Shown one piece after another: positions 21,021-64,000 of a DNA stretch of 64,000 nt (positions are counted from its first letter, which is position 1; every line of letters begins with the position of its first letter). The position numbers and the translations under genes are program-made. The stretch spans positions 17,497 through 81,496 of the forward strand of contig CALRBA010000001.1 in the NCBI GenBank assembly GCA_943353835.1. Reading direction: 5' to 3'. Below the pieces are notes generated by a model. That model was not told the origin of the DNA. It saw only the letters and a program-made list of their open reading frames with translations, and made no database searches. The DNA is from Candidatus Nomurabacteria bacterium. Lineage in GTDB: Bacteria; Patescibacteriota; Minisyncoccia; Phycocordibacterales; Phycocordibacteraceae.

Positions 21021-22634
21021 GTGCTCGGGTATACTAACTGGATGGAAGATAGGATACGAAAGGCGCTGGGAGAGAATGTAGTTATTCGGCGACCACCGAA
21101 TCCGGACTTCGGCGACTACGCCGTTTTTGTAGGGCCGGAAAAGGCGGAGTCGGCTGTGCAGGCGATTCGTAGCGAGCTTGGTGAGAAAGCATCAAAAATT
21201 GAAGTTGCCGGGAAGGGATTCGTGAATATCACTCTCACGCGGAGCGCAGTGACCTTCGCCGTTGCCGAGGCCGATGCGAAGGGCAATGATTGGGGGAAGG
21301 GAGTGGGTGAGGACGGGAAGCGTATTATTGTTGAATACTCAAACCCGAATGCATTTAAGGAAATGCACATCGGCCACTTGGTCGGTACGGTGGTCGGCGA
21401 ATCTTTGTCGCGACTAATAGAAAATTCCGGTGCAAAAGTTGCTCGTGATACATTCGGTGGCGACATAGGACCGAATGTGGCGAAGGCGCTCTGGGGATTA
21501 CAGAAGAGTGGCATCACTGAGCCGACGACCGCCGTGGAAGTGGGGGAGGCTTACAGCTCTGGATCAAATGCCTATGACAGTGACACGCTGGCGAAGACAG
21601 AGATAGACGCGCTGAATCAGGCGATATATGCCGGCACTGATAGAGCTCTTATGGAGCTCTGGCGCAAAGGGCGTGATGTTTCCATGGAGGAATTTCGCCG
21701 TATCTGGAAATTACTCGGCACGCATTTTGATTTTGAATTTTTTGACAGTGACACAACTGAAATTGGTCTGCGTGTCGTAAATGATGGACTCAACAAGAAT
21801 ATATTCCAAAAGAGCGACGGTGCGGTTATCTACAATGGCGAGAGAAAGGGCGTGCACACGCTCGTATTCATCACCTCGCATAACACCCCAACCTACGAAG
21901 CGAAGGATATCGGTCTCGCTTTCTTGAAGGAGGAACGGTGGCCGTCTGATAGGGTCATCATTGTTACGGGGAACGAGCAGGCAGGGCGTTTTAAGACTAT
22001 TCTAGCCGCACTCGGAGAGCTCGCGCCTCTGCTTGCGGAAAAAATAACACATGTAGCGACAGGCTTCTTGAAGCTCGCTTTTGGGAAGATGTCTTCGCGA
22101 GATGGGAATGTCATAACCGCTTCCGATTTCATTAAAGAAGTTATTGAGAAAGCGAGTGAGAAAAATGAGGACCCGCTCGTCGCCGAACAAGTCGCAGTCG
22201 GAGCGATTAAATATATGATCCTGCGCCAATCTCCGGGCTCGGACATTATTTTTGACGAAAAGAAATCACTCTCGCTTGAAGGCGACTCGGGTCCGTATCT
22301 GCAATACGCACTCGTTCGCGCCAAATCTATTGTCGCGAAAGCACCAAACACCAAACATCAAGCACCAAACAAAATGCCAGAAATTCTATATTCAATAGAG
22401 CGCATCATTTTGCATTTCCCAGAAGTGACTTCGCGCACAGCGCGCGAGCTCGCGCCCAATCTACTAGTGAACTATCTCACTGAGCTCGCGAGCGAGTGGA
22501 ATTCTTTTTATGCGCAAGAACGCATTATTGGTGGAGACGACGAAACGCACAAACTCCTCGTCGCCCGCGCATTTGTGAACACAATGACAAACGGTCTCAC
22601 CCTACTCGGCATCCCTGCGCCCGAAAAGATGTAA
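21021..22634 (+). CDS. argS: Arginyl-tRNA synthetase
   Basis: YSNPNAFKEMHIGHL HIGH motif, C-terminal anticodon-binding (DALR-type) region, and KMSSR. Confidence 0.9.
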   Translation: MLGYTNWMEDRIRKALGENVVIRRPPNPDFGDYAVFVGPEKAESAVQAIRSELGEKASKIEVAGKGFVNITLTRSAVTFAVAEADAKGNDWGKGVGEDGKRIIVEYSNPNAFKEMHIGHLVGTVVGESLSRLIENSGAKVARDTFGGDIGPNVAKALWGLQKSGITEPTTAVEVGEAYSSGSNAYDSDTLAKTEIDALNQAIYAGTDRALMELWRKGRDVSMEEFRRIWKLLGTHFDFEFFDSDTTEIGLRVVNDGLNKNIFQKSDGAVIYNGERKGVHTLVFITSHNTPTYEAKDIGLAFLKEERWPSDRVIIVTGNEQAGRFKTILAALGELAPLLAEKITHVATGFLKLAFGKMSSRDGNVITASDFIKEVIEKASEKNEDPLVAEQVAVGAIKYMILRQSPGSDIIFDEKKSLSLEGDSGPYLQYALVRAKSIVAKAPNTKHQAPNKMPEILYSIERIILHFPEVTSRTARELAPNLLVNYLTELASEWNSFYAQERIIGGDDETHKLLVARAFVNTMTNGLTLLGIPAPEKM

Positions 22635-22651: not shown

Positions 22652-25600
22652 ATGGCAGACGGAGAGAAATCAGAAGTGTCCAAGAGAGAGGAGGCGATAC
22701 TTGCCTTTTGGGAGCGCGAGCACATCTTTAAAAAATCACTCGCGAAGAAGTCTCCGAAGGGCGAATTCGTTTTCTACGAAGGTCCGCCGACAGCGAATGC
22801 AGCTCCTGCGCTCCACCACCTCGAGGCACGCGCTTTTAAAGATGCGATTCCGCGATATAAAACAATGCGCGGGTATCGAGTGAATCGTCGAGCGGGATGG
22901 GACACTCACGGTCTCCCAGTGGAATTACAGGTGGAAAAAGAATTGGGGTTTTCTGGGAAAAAAGACATTGAGAAATACGGAGTTGCGGAATTTAATAAAA
23001 AGTGTCGGGAGAGTGTGTTCACTTATATAGATGCATGGGAAAAATTCACTAAGCGCATCGGATACTGGGTAGACGAGAAGAAAGCGTATTTCACTTTTGA
23101 TAGTTCTTATATGGAAGTGCTCTGGCATCTCTTCGCGCAGACAGCGAAGGACGGACGTCTATATAAAGATTATAAAGTTTTACCATGGTGTCCCCGATGC
23201 GGGACCGCACTTTCATCGCACGAGCTCGCACAAGGGTATCAAGACGTCAAAGACCTCACGGTCACGGCGAAATTTGAGCTTCTTGATGAGCCTGGCACGT
23301 TCCTACTCGCGTGGACGACAACTCCGTGGACTCTGCCCGGCAATGTCGCTCTCGCTGTGGGGGCAGATATTGAATACGGGGTGTATGAGGTTGGTGAAGA
23401 GAAAATAATCCTCGCCACAAAGATCGCTACAGAAAAGTCCTCGGGTATCCTCGCTTCGCTCGGCCAGACTATTTCTTCGCGACATTCGCGGCTCATAAAA
23501 GGTAGCGAATTGGTAGGTAAAAAATATAAACCACTCTACGACTTCGCCAAGAATCTTGTGACGGAAAGCGAGAAAGCAAAATTTGATAAGGCGTTTCAGG
23601 TATACTCCGCAGACTTCGTCACGACTGAAGACGGCACCGGCATAGTGCACACGGCTGTGATGTACGGACAGGAAGACTTTGAATTAGGAAATAAAATCGG
23701 ATTGCCGAGGGTACCTCTCGTGAACCCAGAAGGTAAGTTCGTTGAGGGCGTTGGATTCCTCTCTGGACTCTCGGTGGTCGAAGAATCAACATCGGTGGAG
23801 ATCTTAAAAGATCTCCAGACCCGCGGTCTACTTTTCAAAAAGGAGTCGTATACGCATACGTATCCCTTCTGCTGGCGCTGTAAAACTAGACTTATCTACT
23901 ACGCGCGCGATTCGTGGTATATCCGCATGCATGATTTGCGCGGCAAGCTTGTTACGGAGAATAAAAAAATTCACTGGGAACCGGCCTATATCCGTGAGGG
24001 ACGCATGGGGGAATGGCTTGCCAATGCAAAAGATTGGGCGATAAGCCGCGAGCGCTACTGGGGTACTCCGTTGCCGATCTGGAGAAGCTCAGATGGAAGC
24101 GAGCAACTGATAATCGGCTCAATAGACGAACTTAAAAAACACACGAAGAAATCCGGCAACACGTATTTCGTCATGCGTCATGGTATGGCAGAAAGTAATG
24201 CTAATAATTTTTGTAGTACTGACCCAATTAAGCAAAAAGACAATCATTTAACCAAAGAGGGTAAAGAACAAGTATTGAGAAAAATACATGAGTTTAAGCG
24301 CAGTGGCGGAATAGATATTATTGTCGCGTCACCATTTGAGCGGACGACAGAGACGGCTCGCATTGTTTCAGACGTACTTGGGTATGATCCCGGTCAAATT
24401 ATTTTTGATGACAGATTACGTGAGATATCCACTGGTGTGCTTGATGGTCATCCGATAAGCGAATATCGCGCTTTTTATTCAAACCTGCAGGAAAGATTCT
24501 TTAAAGAACCATCTGGTGGGGAAAATCTCACTGAAGTTAGAAGACGTGTTGGTGAGCTACTCTATGATCTAGAGTCTAAACATAAAAATAAAAGAATACT
24601 AATCGTGTCACATGGAGATGCTCTATGGATGTTACAACTCGCTGCATCAGGGAAGCCGTCTACTTCAACAACAGAATTTTCAGAAATGTTATTGGCCGAA
24701 ATTTGTGAACTTGATTTCATATCACTTCCACACAACGAGGACTACGAACTGGATTTGCACAGGCCGTACATTGATGAGGTTGTTCTCGTTTCAAACAAAG
24801 GAACGGAATTGCGGAGAGTGAAGGAAGTTATGGATGTATGGTTTGATTCCGGAGCAATGCCCTTCGCACAGGCGGCGAAAGAACGCGGGCACGAATCACT
24901 TGAAGATTTCTTAAAAAAAGTTGCGTATCCGGCTGATTTCATTTCTGAAGCCATCGACCAGACACGAGGCTGGTTCTATACTCTGCTTGCGGTCGGCACG
25001 CTCGCGGGGCGCGGTGCCGCTTTCAAGAACGCCATCTCACTCGGGCATCTCCTTGATGCCGAAGGCCAGAAAATGAGTAAATCAAAAGGGAATGTCGTTG
25101 ACCCGTGGGTAGAAATTGAAAAGTGGGGCGTTGACGCCCTACGTTTCTGGATGTACAGCGTGACTGGCGCCGGTGATTCAAAGAATTATGACGAGAAAAC
25201 TGTAAAAGAATCCGCAAAAGTTCTGGCATGGCTAGATAACAGCACAAAATTCTACAAAATATTTAATCACGGCGAACTAAAAATAGGAAAGAAGACAGTA
25301 CTTGATAAATGGATATACGCGCGTGTAGAAGAAACAGTCTTGAGCGTTACCGATGCGATGGACAACTACAGTCCGTTTGAAGCGATACGCGCAATCTCCG
25401 TTTTGTGCGAAGATTTGTCGCAATGGTATGTACGACGCGCGAGAGACCGTATGCGCGACGGTGACACCTCTGCATTGGAAACACTGCGTTACACACTGCA
25501 GAACACTGCGCTCCTACTCGCGCCATTTGCGCCTTTTATTGCGGAGGATATATATTGGAAGGTGAGGAGTGAGAACGACCCGGAGAGCGTACATCTCGCA

Positions 25601-26038
25601 GATTGGCCGGAAATTAAAAAACACTGGAGCTTATTTGGCGATTCCGATAAACAACTTGTTGCAGAAATGAAAAAAGTTCGAGTGGTTGCTTCACAGGCAC
25701 TTCAGCTCCGACAAAAGGCGAATATAAAAGTCCGCCAGCCACTCGCGAGCCTAACTGTTCCTGAAAAAATTAGTGCCGAGCTCGCGATTATTCTCGCTGA
25801 AGAGGTGAATGTTAAAAAAATAATTACCGGTAAAGAGCTCTCTCTAGACACGACACTCACACCTGAACTAATCAAAGAAGGCGATGAACGAGAGCTCGCG
25901 CGTGCGGTCGCCGAAGCGAGGAAGACGGAGGGATTTTATCCGAAGGACAAAGTGAACATAGAAATGCATCAGGAAGGTAAGTATTCTGTAACACTTTCAT
26001 CAAGCGTCGTGCGTTTTAATCTTGTCCGTGAGGCATAA
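22652..26038 (+). CDS. ileS: Isoleucyl-tRNA synthetase carrying an inserted histidine-phosphatase (PGAM-superfamily) domain
   Basis: GPPTAN...WDTHGLPVE, editing-domain region, [21 protein letters not shown] and KMSKSKGN all fit IleRS. Residues ~505-700 (nt ~24161-24750) hold MRHGMAESN...RTTETA...SHGDAL, which are histidine phosphatase motifs. Confidence 0.9.
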
Positions 26039-26597
26039 GTACGAGACACGTGCTATCGTACTTTCCCGTTCTCCGGTCGGGGAGGCAAGCACTTTTATTG
26101 TTCTTCTTACCAACGAACTTGGGCTCGTGCGCACTCTCTCGCAAGGAGTTCGTAAGAGTGGCGCGAAGCTTGCTCACGCGCTGACCACTTTCGCCGAGAG
26201 CGACATAGTGCTCGTGCGCGGGAAGGACGGTTGGCGACTCGCCGGCGCCATTCTCTCGGAGAATTGGTTCGCGAGGCTCGGCAGAGCCTCGCCTCGCGAG
26301 AGAGCCGGACGCATTTGCAGTCTCTTATTACGACTTGTCGCAGGCGAAGTTAGTGACCAAAAGCTATTTCCGATTATCAGAGGATTTTTTGATGCGCTGT
26401 CCACGCTTAAAGACGAGATGCACGAAGCCTCTGAAATTCTTACTGCACTTCGCATACTCGCTGTGCTTGGATTTGACGATGGAGGCATCCGTGGAATCCC
26501 GTCTGATTTTACACAGCCATTGCTCGCTGAAATTTTGAAAAATCGTATTAGTTATATTGCTCGTATCAATAACGGCATTAACGCCTCAGGCCTTTGA
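26022..26597 (+). CDS. recO: DNA repair protein RecO-like
   Basis: N-terminal OB-fold pattern ([28 protein letters not shown]). It overlaps the ileS 3' end by 17 nt. Confidence 0.55.
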
Positions 26598-51090: not shown

Positions 51091-51778
51091 GATGACACTG
51101 ATTTTTGACATACGAATATGCATTGGTGAATCGCCCCTGAAAAGGCGATTCATGCCCGCGGCTTGCCGCGGGCGAATTGAAATTAAAGTGTGAATAAAAG
51201 AATGTGCTATGTAGGTCTCCGTACGAGAGACATAAGAGTACACGGTGGATGCCTTGGCCTAGGACGGCTATGAAGGACGCGACTAACCTGCGAAAAGCTT
51301 CGGGGAGGCGGTTTGTAGCCTTTGATCCGGAGATATCCGAATGGGGAAACCCTACAGTTTTGAACTGTAATCTACGAGGTAACTCTTGTATGATGCGAAC
51401 CCTGGGAAGTGAAACATCTCAGTACCAGGAGGAAAAGAGAACAATAGGTGTTGCGTTCCGTCGGCGCGTATGTTCGTGCTGATGGAACGCAACACTCGTG
51501 ATACCCTAAGTAGCGGCGAGCGAAAAGGGAAAAGCCCAAACCGTTTTCTTCGGAAAGCGGGGTTGTAAGATGCGAACGTCCAATTTATTGGAAAAGAGTT
51601 ACAAAATGTCTATATAACAGAAGCTGCTGGGAAGCAGCGCCCCAGAGGGTAATGGCCCCGTATGTGAAATATATGACGACTCTTGTTTGTATTCTTGAGT
51701 AGCTCCAGACACGAATAGCTGGAGTGAATCTGCCGGAACTAACCGGTAAGGCTAAATACGTCCTATGACCGATAGTGA

Positions 51779-51812
<34 letters not shown>

Positions 51813-52382
51813 GAGAGGGGAGTGAAATAGACCTGAAACCGTGTACTTACAAGGGGTCGGAGCGGAATTTATTCCGTGACGGCATGCCTATTGAAGAATG
51901 AGCCGGCGAGTGTATATATCTTGCGTAGCTAAGCCCTTCCGGGGCGGAGCTTAAGGGAAACCGAGCGTGAATAGCGCATTAGTAGGATATATACGACCCG
52001 AAGCCAGATGAGCTTGCCATGAGCAGGGTGAAGTTTGTCGAAAGACAGATGGAGGCCCGAACCCGTAGGTCGTACAACGCCTTGGGATGACTTGTGGTAA
52101 GGAGTGAAAAGCTAATCGAATCTGGGAATAGCTGGTTCTCTCCGAAACAGCTTTTGGGCTGGCGTTGCCATAACGTGCGTGTGGGGGTAGAGCACTGGAA
52201 GGGACCAACAGGGAGAAATCTCGTGGTTCCTATCAAACTCCGAATACCATACGCTCCGGGCAGCAGTTAGAAGGTGGGGGCGAAGCTCCATCGATCGAGA
52301 GGGGAAGAGCCCTGATCGCCAATTAAGGCCCCAAAATCGACGCTCAGTACATCACAAGGAAGTGAGGACTCATTGACAGTGA

Positions 52383-52414
<32 letters not shown>

Positions 52415-53826
52415 GAAAGCGTAACAGCTCACTCATCGAGAGTCCTTGCGCCGAAGATGATCGGGGTTAAGCGTCGTGCCGAAATTGCGGGTGTGCGATT
52501 TTTTAGAAAGTCGTACGCGGTAGGAGAGCGTTGTGTTCGCACTGAAGCTTAAGGGGTAACCCAAGGTGGAGCGTACACAAGTGAGAATGCCGGTACAAGT
52601 AACCACAATGCGGGTGAGAACCCCGCACGTCGAAAGACCAAGGTTTCCTCAGCTATGGTGATCAACTGAGGGTTAGTCGGGCCTAAGGGGATGGCGAGAG
52701 CCGCACCCGATGGACACACGGTTAATATTCCGTGACCGTTTATAAAGGCAATGGAGTGACGAACTGCTGTATGTGTTGCCCATTATTGGATTTGGGTCTG
52801 CGCAGTGAGGGCGTGTATTAGGTAAATCCGGTACACATTACCCCAAGCTGTGACGCAATTTCCTTCTACGGAGGGAGAGAGAGTGCAAAGCGCGGTTTCA
52901 AGAAAATCTTCTACGCATCAACTTTATAGACGACCGTACCGCAAACCGACACAGGTGGTCAGCTCGAGTAGAGTAAGACGAACGAGTAAGATGTCCTCAA
53001 GGAACTCGGCAAACAAGCGGCCGTAAGTTAGCGATAAGGCCTGCCCCTTTCTCGCAAGAGAGAGGGGCCGCAGTGAAAGTTTTCCTGGCAACTGTTTACC
53101 AAAAACACAGCTCCCTGCAAACTCGTAAGAGGAAGTATAGGGGGTGACACCTGACCAATGCCGGAAGGTCAACCATGGTGGGTACACATACTTCGGTGTG
53201 TGTGCTGGACTATGTAAGCCCCGGTGAATGTCGGCGATAACTATAATCGTCCTAAGGTAGCGTAATTCCTTGTCGGGTAAGTTCCGACGTGCACGAATGG
53301 TGTAATGACTGGGAAACTGTCTCGAGGACTCGCTCGGTGAAAATGCACTTCCGGTGAAGATGCCGGATACCTGTAGTTAGACGAAAAGACCCCAGGAGCT
53401 TTACTACAGCTTCGTATTGGCGTTACGTGCTGCATGCGTAGTATAGAGGTCAGACTTTGAAGCATCGGTTTCGGCTGGTGTGGAGTCAACAATGAAATAG
53501 CCTTCTTGCTGTGTGTAACGTCTAACCCCGTTGGGATCCAACGGGGGACCGTGCGTGGCGGGTAGTTTTGGTGGGGCGCTATCCTCCTAAAAAGTAACGG
53601 AGGAGTCTATTAAGGTTCTCTAGGCGCGAATGGAAACCGTGCCGATAGTGTAATGGCATAAGAGAGCTTAACTGCAAGGGGTACATCCCAAGCAGATGCG
53701 AAAGCAGAGCATAGTGAACCGATGGTACGCCTTAGATGCGGCCAGAGATTAACGGATATAAGTTACCCTGGGGATAACAGGCTAGTTCCGCCCAAGCGTC
53801 CTTAGCGACGGCGGAGTTCGGCACCT

Positions 53827-54650
53827 TAACGAATCGGGGTGCCATGCGAGTAATCGCATGAGTCTGGCTGGTACGGTTGGCTCTCGCGCCAACCGCCAGT
53901 GTGCAAAATATGGCTTATAACGGTGAAATCCATTGTAAAATGGACAATACCGTGGGAAGTCTAACGCAATTACAGCGATCAATAATTATCGGAACCATTC
54001 TTGGTGACGGATATTTACGGATCATTTCAGGAAAGAAAAATGCACTTCTCGAAATCAATCACTCTTTCTCACAGAAAGACTATGTTGATTGGAAATACAA
54101 AATGTTAGAAACATTATGTAAGAGTGCGCCAAAGGCTCGCAAAAGTAACGGGACGCGAATAGCGTATCGCTTTACGACGAGACAACATCCTGAAATGACA
54201 AAGCTCTATACACGCTTCTATGGAGAAGGTAAAAAGAGTATTCCAAAGTATTTAGCACTGAATCCGATAATGCTGGCTGTATGGTTCATGGATGATGGAA
54301 GTCGGTGTCGAGCATCTGACGTGTATCTCAATACACAACAGTTTACTCGTACAGATCAAGAGAAGTTGAGAGCGATGCTTTCTTCTCTCGGTATCGAGAG
54401 TAGTCTGAATAAAGATAAAGAATATTCAAGAATTCGAATCAAAAAATCTTCAATATCGAATTTCTTTCAGATAATTTCTCCGTACGTGGTTCCATCAATG
54501 ACATACAAGATTGGGTTATGACCCCGTAGAGACTTGTTCTTAACTGAACAGAGCCGCCAATTGGCGGCTAACACGCCATCTCCTTTTGTGTGATCGAAAG
54601 GATGAAGATATAGTCCGATCCTTCCAGTAATGGAAGAGTAATTTCGACAG
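53827..54650 (+). mobile_element. Group I intron 1 in 23S (inserted between GGCACCT and CGATGTCGGCTC) carrying a LAGLIDADG homing-endonuclease ORF
   Basis: Exon continuity is restored by removing 53827-54650. The intron ends in G, and its P9-like 3' region is similar to that of intron 2. Confidence 0.7.
53877..54521 (+). CDS. LAGLIDADG homing endonuclease (double-motif)
   Basis: [11 protein letters not shown] and [10 protein letters not shown] motifs; start codon uncertain (M at 53877, 53910 or 53940). Confidence 0.8.
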
Positions 54651-55520: not shown

Positions 55521-55638
55521 GTTCTGGTGGTTTGGCGGGAGGGTCATACCCGTTCTCATTCCGAACACGGCAGTCAAGCCTCCTAGCGGCGATGGTACTC
55601 ATCGTTTCAGATGGGGAGAGTAGCTAACCGCCAGAACC
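55521..55638 (+). rRNA. rrf: 5S ribosomal RNA
   Basis: CCGAACACGGCAGTCAAGCC...GGGAGAGTAGC conserved 5S helices, ~150 nt after 23S. Confidence 0.8.
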
Positions 55639-63637: not shown

Positions 63638-63830
63638 GACCATACTGCCACTCGGTTCATGAGTAGGTAGGGGAAGTCTAGAAAATGAACTCGAAGGGGT
63701 TCATTGTGCGTTCTAGCGCTGTTATTTGACAACCCACATACGTGCTAAATGTGAAATGAAAAGCCCCCGCCAACATCTGCGAAGTTGTTGCGGGGGAGTG
63801 TGAATTCTTTTGTTCCGCCTATTCTTAATG

Positions 63831-64000
63831 AGAGTTTGATCCTAGCTCAGGGTGAATGCTGGCGGCGTGGATAAGTCATGCAAGTAGAACGCCCCGCAAG
63901 GGGAGTTGCGAACGAGGTAGTAACACGTAGGTAGATCCCCCGAAGTCGGGCATAGCCAGTCGAAAGACTGGGTAATTCCCGATAGCGTGGAGACACTAAA
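63831..64000 (+). rRNA. rrs: 16S ribosomal RNA, 5' end (3'-partial, continues beyond the window)
   Basis: AGAGTTTGATCCTAGCTCAG...GCGGCGTGGATAAGTCATGCAAGT. Confidence 0.85.

What the first reader, a model, noticed from the sequence alone, without database searches (positions are those of the whole stretch)
22796..22825. The HIGH signature position of this IleRS reads P-A-L-H-H
By hand alignment to the canonical GPP(Y/F)ANGxxHxGH block, this protein has [13 protein letters not shown]. The first His of HIGH is replaced by Ala and the Gly by His, whereas the KMSKS motif (KMSKSKGN) is intact. ArgRS and MetRS in the same window have normal HIGH motifs (MHIGHL, PHIGHAL). This points either to an unusual catalytic-site variant or, together with the phosphatase insertion, to a diverged or paralogous IleRS.
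Basis: seen in the sequence. Interest (0 to 1): 0.5.

Follow-up and report, generated by a model that had tools for sequence, protein, structure and literature searches.

The report
Known swapped HIGH motif in IleRS
The isoleucyl-tRNA synthetase here really does read A-L-H-H where class I synthetases normally read H-I-G-H, but this is the published "swapped" motif of type-2 IleRS, which leaves the enzyme active and makes it highly resistant to mupirocin, and it is the normal state in this bacterial lineage.

Summary
Residues 53-56 of the 1128-aa IleRS (nt 22808-22819) are A-L-H-H. They align without gaps to HVGH of T. thermophilus IleRS and to GVHH of an engineered P. megaterium IleRS2. There is no HxGH anywhere in the protein, and KMSKS is intact.

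This is the non-canonical G/AXHH signature of type-2 IleRS described by Brkic et al. 2023. The exact motif ALHH occurs naturally in D. radiodurans IleRS2, which is fully active (kcat about 45 s-1) and has a mupirocin Ki of 6.6 mM.

In this Patescibacteria (Paceibacterota) lineage the swapped motif is the norm: 118 of 120 nearest protein clusters and 74 of 75 motifs read from the fetched loci carry it. Gly and Ala at motif position 1 interchange repeatedly.

The gene sits in a conserved argS-ileS-recO cluster, and all editing and catalytic motifs are conserved. Nothing points to a degenerate or paralogous enzyme.

The embedded histidine phosphatase is independent of the motif, because it also occurs in IleRS with canonical HxGH. 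It is the more interesting feature. Its catalytic residues are invariant. Stand-alone orthologues lie directly upstream of insertion-less ileS in 6 of 6 contigs checked. I found no description of it in the literature searched.

The parts
22652..26038 (+). ileS: type-2 isoleucyl-tRNA synthetase, 1128 aa, with an internal His_Phos_1 domain
   Evidence: ORF. TIGR00392 scores 811.4 bits against a cutoff of 621.4. Pfam finds tRNA-synt_1, His_Phos_1, Anticodon_1 and DUF5915. The best solved relatives are 1ILE (E 9e-210) and 8C8U/8C8W.
22808..22819 (+). HIGH-equivalent signature A53-L54-H55-H56, the non-canonical G/AXHH form
   Evidence: Gap-free alignment to HVGH of 1ILE/8C8U and GVHH of 8C8W. Coordinates. 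Column counts in 120 homologues: position 1 is G 106, A 12, H 2; position 3 is H 118, G 2; position 4 is H 120.
22799..22801 (+). A50: the Gly of the conserved 'GPPTANG' block replaced by Ala (ANG becomes ANA)
   Evidence: Column counts are G 109, A 11. In the 193-sequence set, A50 is found only together with A53: 23 of 27 A53 sequences have it, and none of the 166 others do.
25070..25084 (+). KMSKS loop (residues 807-811), intact
   Evidence: KMSKS is present in 120 of 120 homologues.
23312..23650 (+). CP1 editing-domain core, between the motifs [11 protein letters not shown] (221-231) and GTGIVH (328-333)
   Evidence: Both motifs are present and nearly invariant in the 120 homologues. This region aligns to the T. 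thermophilus editing-domain structures 1WK8/1UE0.
24152..24748 (+). Histidine phosphatase (His_Phos_1) domain inserted in the CP2 region (residues ~501-699), between WGTPLP (470-475) and HRPYID (703-708). Catalytic residues are R509, H510, R564, E591 and H654.
   Evidence: Pfam PF00300 covers 506-688 with E 2.6e-30. About 199 residues replace a linker of about 5 residues in 1ILE (482 to 488) and in 8C8U (478 to 480). The catalytic residues are at least 98% conserved although the domain averages only 42% identity, against 76% for the rest of the protein.
21021..22634 (+). argS (ArgRS, canonical HIGH), directly upstream with a 17-nt gap
   Evidence: It lies upstream of ileS in 74 of 82 fetched loci.
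26022..26597 (+). recO-like gene overlapping the end of ileS
   Evidence: RecO_N. It lies downstream of ileS in 76 of 82 fetched loci.

Best explanation
This is the lineage's ordinary, working type-2 isoleucyl-tRNA synthetase. It carries the known non-canonical class I signature G/AXHH, here ALHH, in which positions 1 and 3 of HxGH are in effect swapped.

The mechanism is taken from the published structures and kinetics, not shown here. [quoted passage not shown] A His at position 3 therefore fits without clashing with the adenine, and its N-epsilon-2 takes the place of the first His that normally stabilises the transition state of amino-acid activation. Position 1 then only needs a small residue (Gly or Ala). 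Activation stays efficient, while mupirocin, whose binding pushes the motif back towards the ligand, clashes with the position-3 His. This gives Ki values in the millimolar range.

In this Patescibacteria clade the swapped motif is inherited vertically. It was not recently acquired. Ala versus Gly at position 1 is a recurrent, apparently near-neutral toggle.

Shown here: the motif identity, the homology-based placement, the type-2 membership, the conservation and the synteny. Inferred: catalytic competence and mupirocin hyper-resistance of this particular enzyme.
For: The placement of ALHH on the HIGH position is unambiguous, and no alternative HxGH exists.

Type-2 IleRS identity rests on several results. 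TIGR00392 is above its cutoff. The closest models and structures are MupA/MupB, T. thermophilus IleRS2 and P. megaterium IleRS2. The type-2 C-terminal DUF5915 domain is present. Trp129 aligns with PmIleRS2 Trp130.

The literature supports the mechanism. G/AXHH was found in 86 of 163 bacterial IleRS2 and never in IleRS1. Wild-type ALHH D. radiodurans IleRS2 has kcat 45.5 s-1 and Ki(mupirocin) 6.6 mM, which falls 823-fold on reversion to HVGH. GVHH mutants of Tt and Pm IleRS2 gain about 200-fold in Ki. Crystal structures show the position-3 His N-epsilon-2 at the position of the canonical first His. A 2026 preprint survey of 96,219 IleRS again treats [A/G]XHH as characteristic of IleRS2.

The motif is the lineage norm: 118 of 120 nearest 90%-identity clusters are G/AxHH, as are 74 of 75 motifs read from the fetched loci, which are GTDB species representatives plus the window's own contigs.

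KMSKS and the editing motifs are conserved. The argS-ileS-recO synteny is conserved. The GC content of ileS (0.44-0.49) is like that of its flanks. No other IleRS-like ORF is present in the window.
Against: No enzyme from this clade has been assayed, so activity and resistance are extrapolated from Deinococcus, Thermus, Priestia and Streptomyces enzymes.

The additional G50A change (ANG to ANA), which accompanies A53 in this clade, has not been studied.

The roughly 200-residue phosphatase domain in CP2 has no counterpart in any characterised IleRS and could modify the kinetics.

Only 64 kb of the genome is available, so a second ileS cannot be excluded.
Confidence: 0.9

Rival explanations
1. 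The protein is a degenerate or neofunctionalised IleRS paralogue. It would have lost catalytic His1, gained a phosphatase domain and no longer serve as the housekeeping synthetase, with a canonical ileS elsewhere in the genome.
For: The canonical first His and the Gly of HIGH are both missing. A foreign enzymatic domain sits inside the catalytic region. The rest of the genome was not available.
Against: The same ALHH motif supports wild-type catalysis in D. radiodurans IleRS2. KMSKS, the editing motifs and the anticodon-binding domains are all conserved under strong constraint, with 76% mean identity outside the insert. The gene occupies the conserved argS-ileS-recO slot that holds the insertion-less ileS in sister lineages. 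Each of the 80 fetched GTDB loci comes from a different assembly. There is no second IleRS in the window.
Confidence: 0.04
2. The gene is a recently acquired, mobile antibiotic-resistance ileS2 of the mupA/mupB kind, not the native gene.
For: The NCBIfam MupB and MupA models are the next-best hits (720 and 675 bits). The G/AXHH motif is associated with hyper-resistance.
Against: Both scores are far below the 1900-bit cutoffs of those models. The motif and the gene order are shared by relatives down to about 52% identity across Paceibacterota. There is no compositional break. The neighbours are housekeeping genes: L11, argS, recO and a class II aaRS.
Confidence: 0.03
3. The reading results from a misalignment or a sequence error. 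The true signature would lie elsewhere or be corrupted by an assembly error.
For: None beyond the a priori rarity of non-HxGH class I enzymes.
Against: The alignment is gap-free and high-confidence across residues 9-214. There is no other HxGH in the protein. The identical protein is on record on 6 contigs. The motif is shared by dozens of related genomes.
Confidence: 0.01

Closest known systems
Deinococcus radiodurans IleRS2 (natural ALHH motif; Brkic et al. 2023, Nat Commun 14:5498)
   Same: It is a type-2 IleRS with the identical tetrapeptide A-L-H-H at the HIGH position and an intact KMSKS. It is a housekeeping enzyme. Published values: kcat 45.5 s-1 and Ki(mupirocin) 6.6 mM.
   Different: It comes from a different phylum and is not reported to carry an internal histidine phosphatase domain. 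Whether it has the accompanying ANG to ANA change was not checked here. The window's enzyme has not been assayed.
GXHH IleRS2 enzymes: Streptomyces griseus IleRS2 and the engineered mut-GVHH P. megaterium (PDB 8C8W) and T. thermophilus IleRS2
   Same: The same swap of positions 1 and 3. 8C8W is the second-best solved match to the window protein (E 5e-209) and aligns GVHH to ALHH. This is the majority form (GIHH/GVHH) among the window protein's own relatives.
   Different: Position 1 is Gly where the window protein has Ala, and there is no phosphatase insertion.
Thermus thermophilus IleRS (PDB 1ILE), canonical HVGH type-2 enzyme
   Same: It is the best solved homologue (E 9e-210). The flanking sequence is nearly identical (GPPTAN..P....[17 protein letters not shown]).
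   Different: It has canonical HVGH, interpreted by Brkic et al. as a natural reversion in Deinococcus-Thermus. Its linker at residues 482-488 is where the window protein has about 199 extra residues.
MupA / MupB plasmid-borne mupirocin-resistant IleRS2 (NCBIfam NF000257 / NF000258)
   Same: Type-2 IleRS with strong overall similarity (675 and 720 bits).
   Different: The scores are far below the family cutoffs (1900 bits). The window gene is chromosomal, syntenic and vertically inherited.
PhoE / PspA / CobC-type branch-1 histidine phosphatases (e.g. PDB 9MMH, 4IJ5, 1H2E), for the inserted domain only
   Same: Pfam His_Phos_1 fold with the RHG, R, E and H catalytic set.
   Different: No NCBIfam equivalog cutoff is reached: dPGM_arch 66 of 225, PspA 55 of 350, CobC 54 of 163 bits. 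The domain is embedded inside an aaRS. Its substrate is unknown.
ileS_w_GNAT (NCBIfam NF040702): IleRS carrying an extra N-acetyltransferase domain
   Same: A precedent for an IleRS that carries an additional enzymatic domain.
   Different: The extra domain is different. The score is 299 bits against a cutoff of 1999, so the window protein is not a member.

Membership tests
Isoleucyl-tRNA synthetase (TIGR00392 ileS equivalog) | Whole-protein score above the curated cutoff | tested here: met
   811.4 bits against a cutoff of 621.4, in two stretches split by the insert.
Isoleucyl-tRNA synthetase (TIGR00392 ileS equivalog) | KMSKS loop and CP1 editing-domain motifs (T-rich WTTTPWTLP; GTGxVH) | tested here: met
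   KMSKS at residues 807-811, [11 protein letters not shown] at 221-231 and GTGIVH at 328-333. All are nearly invariant in the 120 homologues.
Isoleucyl-tRNA synthetase (TIGR00392 ileS equivalog) | Ile activation and tRNA-Ile charging activity | not testable with these tools
   This needs ATP-PPi exchange and aminoacylation assays.
Type-2 IleRS (IleRS2 / HUP-2) | Closest to IleRS2 and not IleRS1; type-2 C-terminal domains (ARD3/DUF5915) and no IleRS1 zinc-binding domain | tested here: met
   IleRS2 structures 1ILE and 8C8U score about 700 bits, against about 298 bits for IleRS1 structures 1FFY and 8C9F. PF19302 DUF5915 is present and no Zn-finger family is reported. Trp129 aligns with PmIleRS2 Trp130.
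Non-canonical G/AXHH signature subclass of IleRS2 (Brkic et al. 2023) | At the HIGH position: Gly or Ala at position 1, a hydrophobic residue at position 2, His at positions 3 and 4 | tested here: met
   A53-L54-H55-H56 aligns to HVGH and GVHH of solved IleRS2.
Non-canonical G/AXHH signature subclass of IleRS2 (Brkic et al. 2023) | Retained catalytic efficiency and millimolar Ki for mupirocin | not testable with these tools
   Inferred only from DrIleRS2 (ALHH), SgIleRS2 and the engineered mutants.
MupA / MupB acquired mupirocin-resistance IleRS | Score above the NCBIfam 'exception' cutoff (1900 bits) | tested here: not met
   719.7 bits (MupB) and 674.9 bits (MupA).
Histidine phosphatase superfamily branch 1 (PF00300), inserted domain | Pfam gathering score, and the catalytic RHG His plus two Arg, a Glu and a second His | tested here: met
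   106 bits against a cutoff of 21.7. R509, H510, R564, E591 and H654 are present and at least 98% conserved in the 120 homologues.
Specific phosphatase/mutase equivalogs (dPGM, PspA, CobC, GpmB, SixA) | Score above the curated equivalog cutoff | tested here: not met
   All are far below their cutoffs: for example dPGM_arch 65.8 of 225, PspA 54.8 of 350, CobC 54 of 162.9, SixA 31.6 of 74.5.

The most novel reading that the evidence does not exclude
The HIGH variant itself is known. The most novel reading left open concerns the enzyme as a whole. It may be a bifunctional IleRS in which a catalytically active histidine phosphatase works together with the synthetase. Stand-alone orthologues of that phosphatase are encoded immediately upstream of ileS in sister Patescibacteria lineages, so the domain would have been captured from the neighbouring gene into the CP2 region. 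The same phosphatase clade is also found fused to Sua5/TsaC and to ATP sulfurylase. All three partners convert ATP to an adenylate plus pyrophosphate. The domain might therefore remove PPi to pull adenylation forward. Alternatively it might dephosphorylate an adenosine-linked substrate such as pAp or a 3'-phosphorylated tRNA end. I found no description of this association in the literature searched.
Probability: 0.25. Interest if true: 0.6.

Novelty: new member of a known kind. Interest (0 to 1): 0.2.

Why it matters
For the finding as written, the result is mostly a clarification. A missing HIGH motif in an IleRS is not a sign of decay when the enzyme is type 2. It is the published G/AXHH signature, and ALHH is a biochemically validated instance.

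The census here adds that the swapped motif is near-universal in a large uncultivated radiation (Paceibacterota/Kaiserbacteria/Nomurabacteria-type Patescibacteria). These organisms are therefore predicted to be intrinsically hyper-resistant to mupirocin-like inhibitors. The census also shows that Gly and Ala at position 1 interchange freely, and that occasional reversions to HMGH occur, as in Deinococcus-Thermus.

There is a practical point for annotation. Many of these proteins are named only 'class I tRNA ligase family protein' in NCBI records, although they pass the IleRS equivalog model.

The phosphatase-IleRS association, seen either as a neighbouring gene or as an inserted domain, is the part that could repay experimental work.

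Tried and rejected
1. I looked for an alternative HxGH or HxGN in the protein. There is none.

2. I looked for a second IleRS in the window by running phmmer against all ORFs of at least 80 aa. Only the gene itself and a weak MetRS hit (E 2e-8) were found.

3. I tested whether the motif swap and the phosphatase insertion are linked. This is rejected. Insertion-bearing IleRS representatives carry HYGH, HIGH, HMGH, HPGH or HFGH as well as G/AxHH. Insertion-less neighbours carry HYGH or GVHH.

4. I tested for signs of recent horizontal acquisition (composition, synteny). None were found.

5. I tried to assign the inserted phosphatase to a specific equivalog (dPGM, PspA, CobC, SixA, GpmB). All scores are below their cutoffs. 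PDB matches are generic.

6. Four literature searches looked for an IleRS or aaRS with a histidine phosphatase domain, or for pyrophosphatase activity in this superfamily branch. A term search inside the 2026 IleRS survey preprint found 0 occurrences of 'phosphatase'. Nothing relevant turned up.

7. I considered a structure prediction and did not run it. The tool returns no coordinates, so it could not show how the position-3 His or the phosphatase active site sits relative to the synthetic site.

8. The context of the Sua5-phosphatase fusion was uninformative because the contig is only 3.7 kb.
Full report
**Observation.**
The ORF at 22652..26038 (+) encodes a 1128-aa protein. The finding's coordinates 22796-22825 translate to N49-A-A-P-A-L-H-H-L-E58. 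The block [13 protein letters not shown] is residues 44-56, and the HIGH-equivalent tetrapeptide A53-L54-H55-H56 is nt 22808-22819.

The phmmer alignments to solved structures are gap-free here. The query ...[21 protein letters not shown] lies over [21 protein letters not shown] of T. thermophilus IleRS (1ILE, E 9e-210). It also lies over [17 protein letters not shown] of P. megaterium IleRS2 (8C8U) and over [17 protein letters not shown] of its engineered mutant (8C8W).

There is no H.GH or H.G[HN] anywhere in the protein, and only one [GA].HH, at residue 53.

KMSKS is intact at residues 807-811. A 100% identical protein is on record on six contigs, from the ENA, Logan and NCBI sources, so this is not an assembly error.

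**What the protein is.**
It passes the IleRS equivalog model TIGR00392 (811 bits against a cutoff of 621). Pfam finds tRNA-synt_1 (split in two), Anticodon_1 and the type-2 C-terminal DUF5915. It is much closer to type-2 IleRS structures (about 700 bits) than to type-1 structures (about 298 bits).

The MupA and MupB models are strong but sub-threshold hits (675 and 720 bits against a cutoff of 1900). The editing motifs [11 protein letters not shown] and GTGIVH and the CPRC/CWRC cysteines are present and nearly invariant among relatives.

**What the motif is.**
Brkic et al. (Nat Commun 2023, PMC10485003) described exactly this. Of 163 bacterial IleRS2 in their set, 86 lack HxGH and instead carry G/AXHH, 'Gly or rarely Ala' at position 1 and His at position 3. 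No IleRS1 does.

Their natural example, D. radiodurans IleRS2, is ALHH, the same tetrapeptide as here. It has kcat 45.5 s-1 and a mupirocin Ki of 6.6 mM. Reverting it to HVGH lowers Ki 823-fold. Introducing GVHH into the T. thermophilus and P. megaterium enzymes raises Ki about 200-fold at little catalytic cost.

Their structures show two things. In IleRS2 the helix alpha-1 tip is shifted, so a His at position 3 does not clash with adenine. The N-epsilon-2 of that His then occupies the place of the canonical first His. The same swap inactivates IleRS1.

They infer at least two independent origins of the motif and a natural reversion in Deinococcus-Thermus. A 2026 preprint that surveyed 96,219 IleRS again treats [A/G]XHH as a hallmark of IleRS2.

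**How ordinary it is in this lineage.**
The 120 best protein clusters (63-100% identity) all carry the phosphatase insertion, and every one that a source names is from Patescibacteria, Paceibacterota or Kaiserbacteria or is labelled only 'bacterium'. Their motifs are GxHH in 106, AxHH in 12 and HMGH in 2. KMSKS is present in 120 of 120.

A scan of one genome per GTDB species found 451 related loci. Reading the motif in the fetched loci (the best 80 plus the window's own two contigs, L001 and L002) gives GxHH 57, AxHH 17 and HMGH 1. ALHH accounts for 14 of these, or 12 without L001/L002, and it reaches down to Nomurabacteria-type relatives at about 52% identity.

On a rough NJ tree of 193 sequences, position 53 needs about 13 state changes and position 50 about 10, with Gly at the root. 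The tree is crude, so these counts are only an order of magnitude. They still show that Gly and Ala at position 1 interchange repeatedly.

In this set the second substitution (A50, ANG to ANA) occurs only together with A53: 23 of 27 A53 sequences have it, against 0 of 166 others. In more distant insertion-bearing representatives, ANA also occurs with GxHH.

**Paralogue or housekeeping gene?**
The gene lies 17 nt downstream of argS and overlaps a recO-like gene. ArgS is found upstream in 74 of 82 fetched loci, recO downstream in 76, and the following large ORF in 75.

GC content across ileS (0.44-0.49) matches that of the flanks. No other IleRS-like ORF is in the window. All 80 GTDB loci come from different assemblies.

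These results favour a vertically inherited, sole housekeeping ileS. The absence of a second copy elsewhere in the genome could not be tested.

**The phosphatase insertion (outside the finding's coordinates).**
Residues ~501-699 (nt 24152-24748) replace a five-residue linker of 1ILE (482-488) and 8C8U (478-480). That places the insertion in the CP2 region, before the second half of the catalytic HUP domain, which starts at residue 513 in PmIleRS2. Pfam assigns it to His_Phos_1 (E 2.6e-30). No specific phosphatase or mutase equivalog cutoff is reached.

The domain averages only 42% identity among the 120 homologues, against 76% for the rest of the protein. Even so, R509, H510, R564, E591 and H654 are at least 98% conserved, which argues for an active enzyme.

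A search of the 50%-identity representative library with the insert alone finds 758 proteins at E<=1e-10. Several groups stand out.
- IleRS proteins with the insertion at the same site, carrying HYGH, HIGH, HMGH, HPGH or HFGH as well as G/AxHH. The insertion is therefore independent of the motif swap.
- Stand-alone proteins of about 190 aa.
- Two proteins fused C-terminally to Sua5/YrdC.
- One protein fused N-terminally to PUA_2 plus ATP sulfurylase. This fusion sits next to a sulfotransferase gene.

A profile built from the non-IleRS members retrieves 2645 proteins at E<=1e-10. Of the 120 listed, 119 are stand-alone proteins of about 190 aa (one other hit also carries tRNA-synt_1), and those that a source names are mostly from Patescibacteria.

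In 6 of 6 contigs looked up for such stand-alone genes, the phosphatase gene lies directly upstream of an insertion-less ileS (930-986 aa). A NUDIX gene intervenes in one of them. The cluster is the same argS-[phosphatase]-ileS-x-recO arrangement. Three of those ileS genes were checked and read HYGH, HYGH and GVHH.

The simplest history is that a neighbouring, functionally linked gene was captured as an internal domain. This is an inference, and the direction of the event was not tested.

All three fusion partners convert ATP to an adenylate plus PPi. This suggests, but does not show, a role in PPi removal. A role on an adenosine-phosphate substrate is an alternative.

Four literature searches and a term search in the 2026 IleRS survey found no description of this association.

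**Verdict.**
The 'unusual catalytic-site variant' reading is right, but the variant is already known and mechanistically explained. The 'diverged or paralogous IleRS' reading is not supported. The finding is ordinary for a type-2 IleRS and normal for this lineage, so its interest is low. The embedded phosphatase deserves its own follow-up.

Noticed in passing
window 24152-24748 (IleRS residues ~501-699); related loci L083, L085, L087-L090: A His_Phos_1 domain with invariant catalytic residues is inserted in the CP2 region of IleRS. Stand-alone orthologues of about 190 aa lie directly upstream of an insertion-less ileS in 6 of 6 Patescibacteria contigs checked, in the same argS-ileS-recO cluster. 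I found no description of this in the literature searched.
   Followed up: partly
proteins P0184, P0265 (Sua5/YrdC + His_Phos_1) and P0232 (His_Phos_1 + PUA_2 + ATP sulfurylase; locus L092 5001-6707): The same phosphatase clade (38-44% identical to the insert) is also fused to two other enzymes that convert ATP to an adenylate plus PPi. The ATP-sulfurylase fusion sits next to a sulfotransferase gene. This hints at PPi or an adenosine-phosphate as the substrate.
   Followed up: partly
proteins P0127, P0234, P0258: These gene products start at the His_Phos_1 domain and continue with only the C-terminal half of IleRS (tRNA-synt_1 second half, Anticodon_1, DUF5915). They could be ileS genes split at the insertion site, or truncated gene calls.
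   Followed up: no
proteins P0155 (HVGN), P0253 (HYGN), P0124 (HSGS): Some insertion-bearing IleRS representatives lack the fourth His of the signature (HxGN, HSGS). This variant is different from G/AXHH. I did not check it against the literature.
   Followed up: no
window 22799-22801 (A50): The Gly of the conserved GPPTANG block is Ala. Within this clade, ANA occurs only together with Ala at motif position 1 (23 of 27 against 0 of 166). This suggests a coupled or permissive substitution whose effect is unknown.
   Followed up: partly
loci L022 and proteins P0057, P0075: There are rare natural reversions to canonical HMGH inside the otherwise G/AxHH clade. They are accompanied by GPPG(A/T)N where the clade normally has GPPTAN. 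This parallels the reversion reported for Deinococcus-Thermus.
   Followed up: no
window 51222-53890 (23S), 53877-54521 (ORF), 55523-55636 (5S), 63824-64000 (16S start): The rRNA genes are in an unusual order (23S, 5S, then 16S about 8 kb downstream). The 23S match spans only 2669 nt of a 2925-position model. An ORF with LAGLIDADG-like motifs (ILGDGYL, WFMDDGS) starts at its 3' end, suggesting an intron or homing-endonuclease insertion. This reading rests on my inspection of the translation only.
   Followed up: no
name column: Many of these IleRS are named only 'class I tRNA ligase family protein' in NCBI records, although the window protein passes the TIGR00392 equivalog cutoff. This may be an annotation side-effect of the internal domain.
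   Followed up: no
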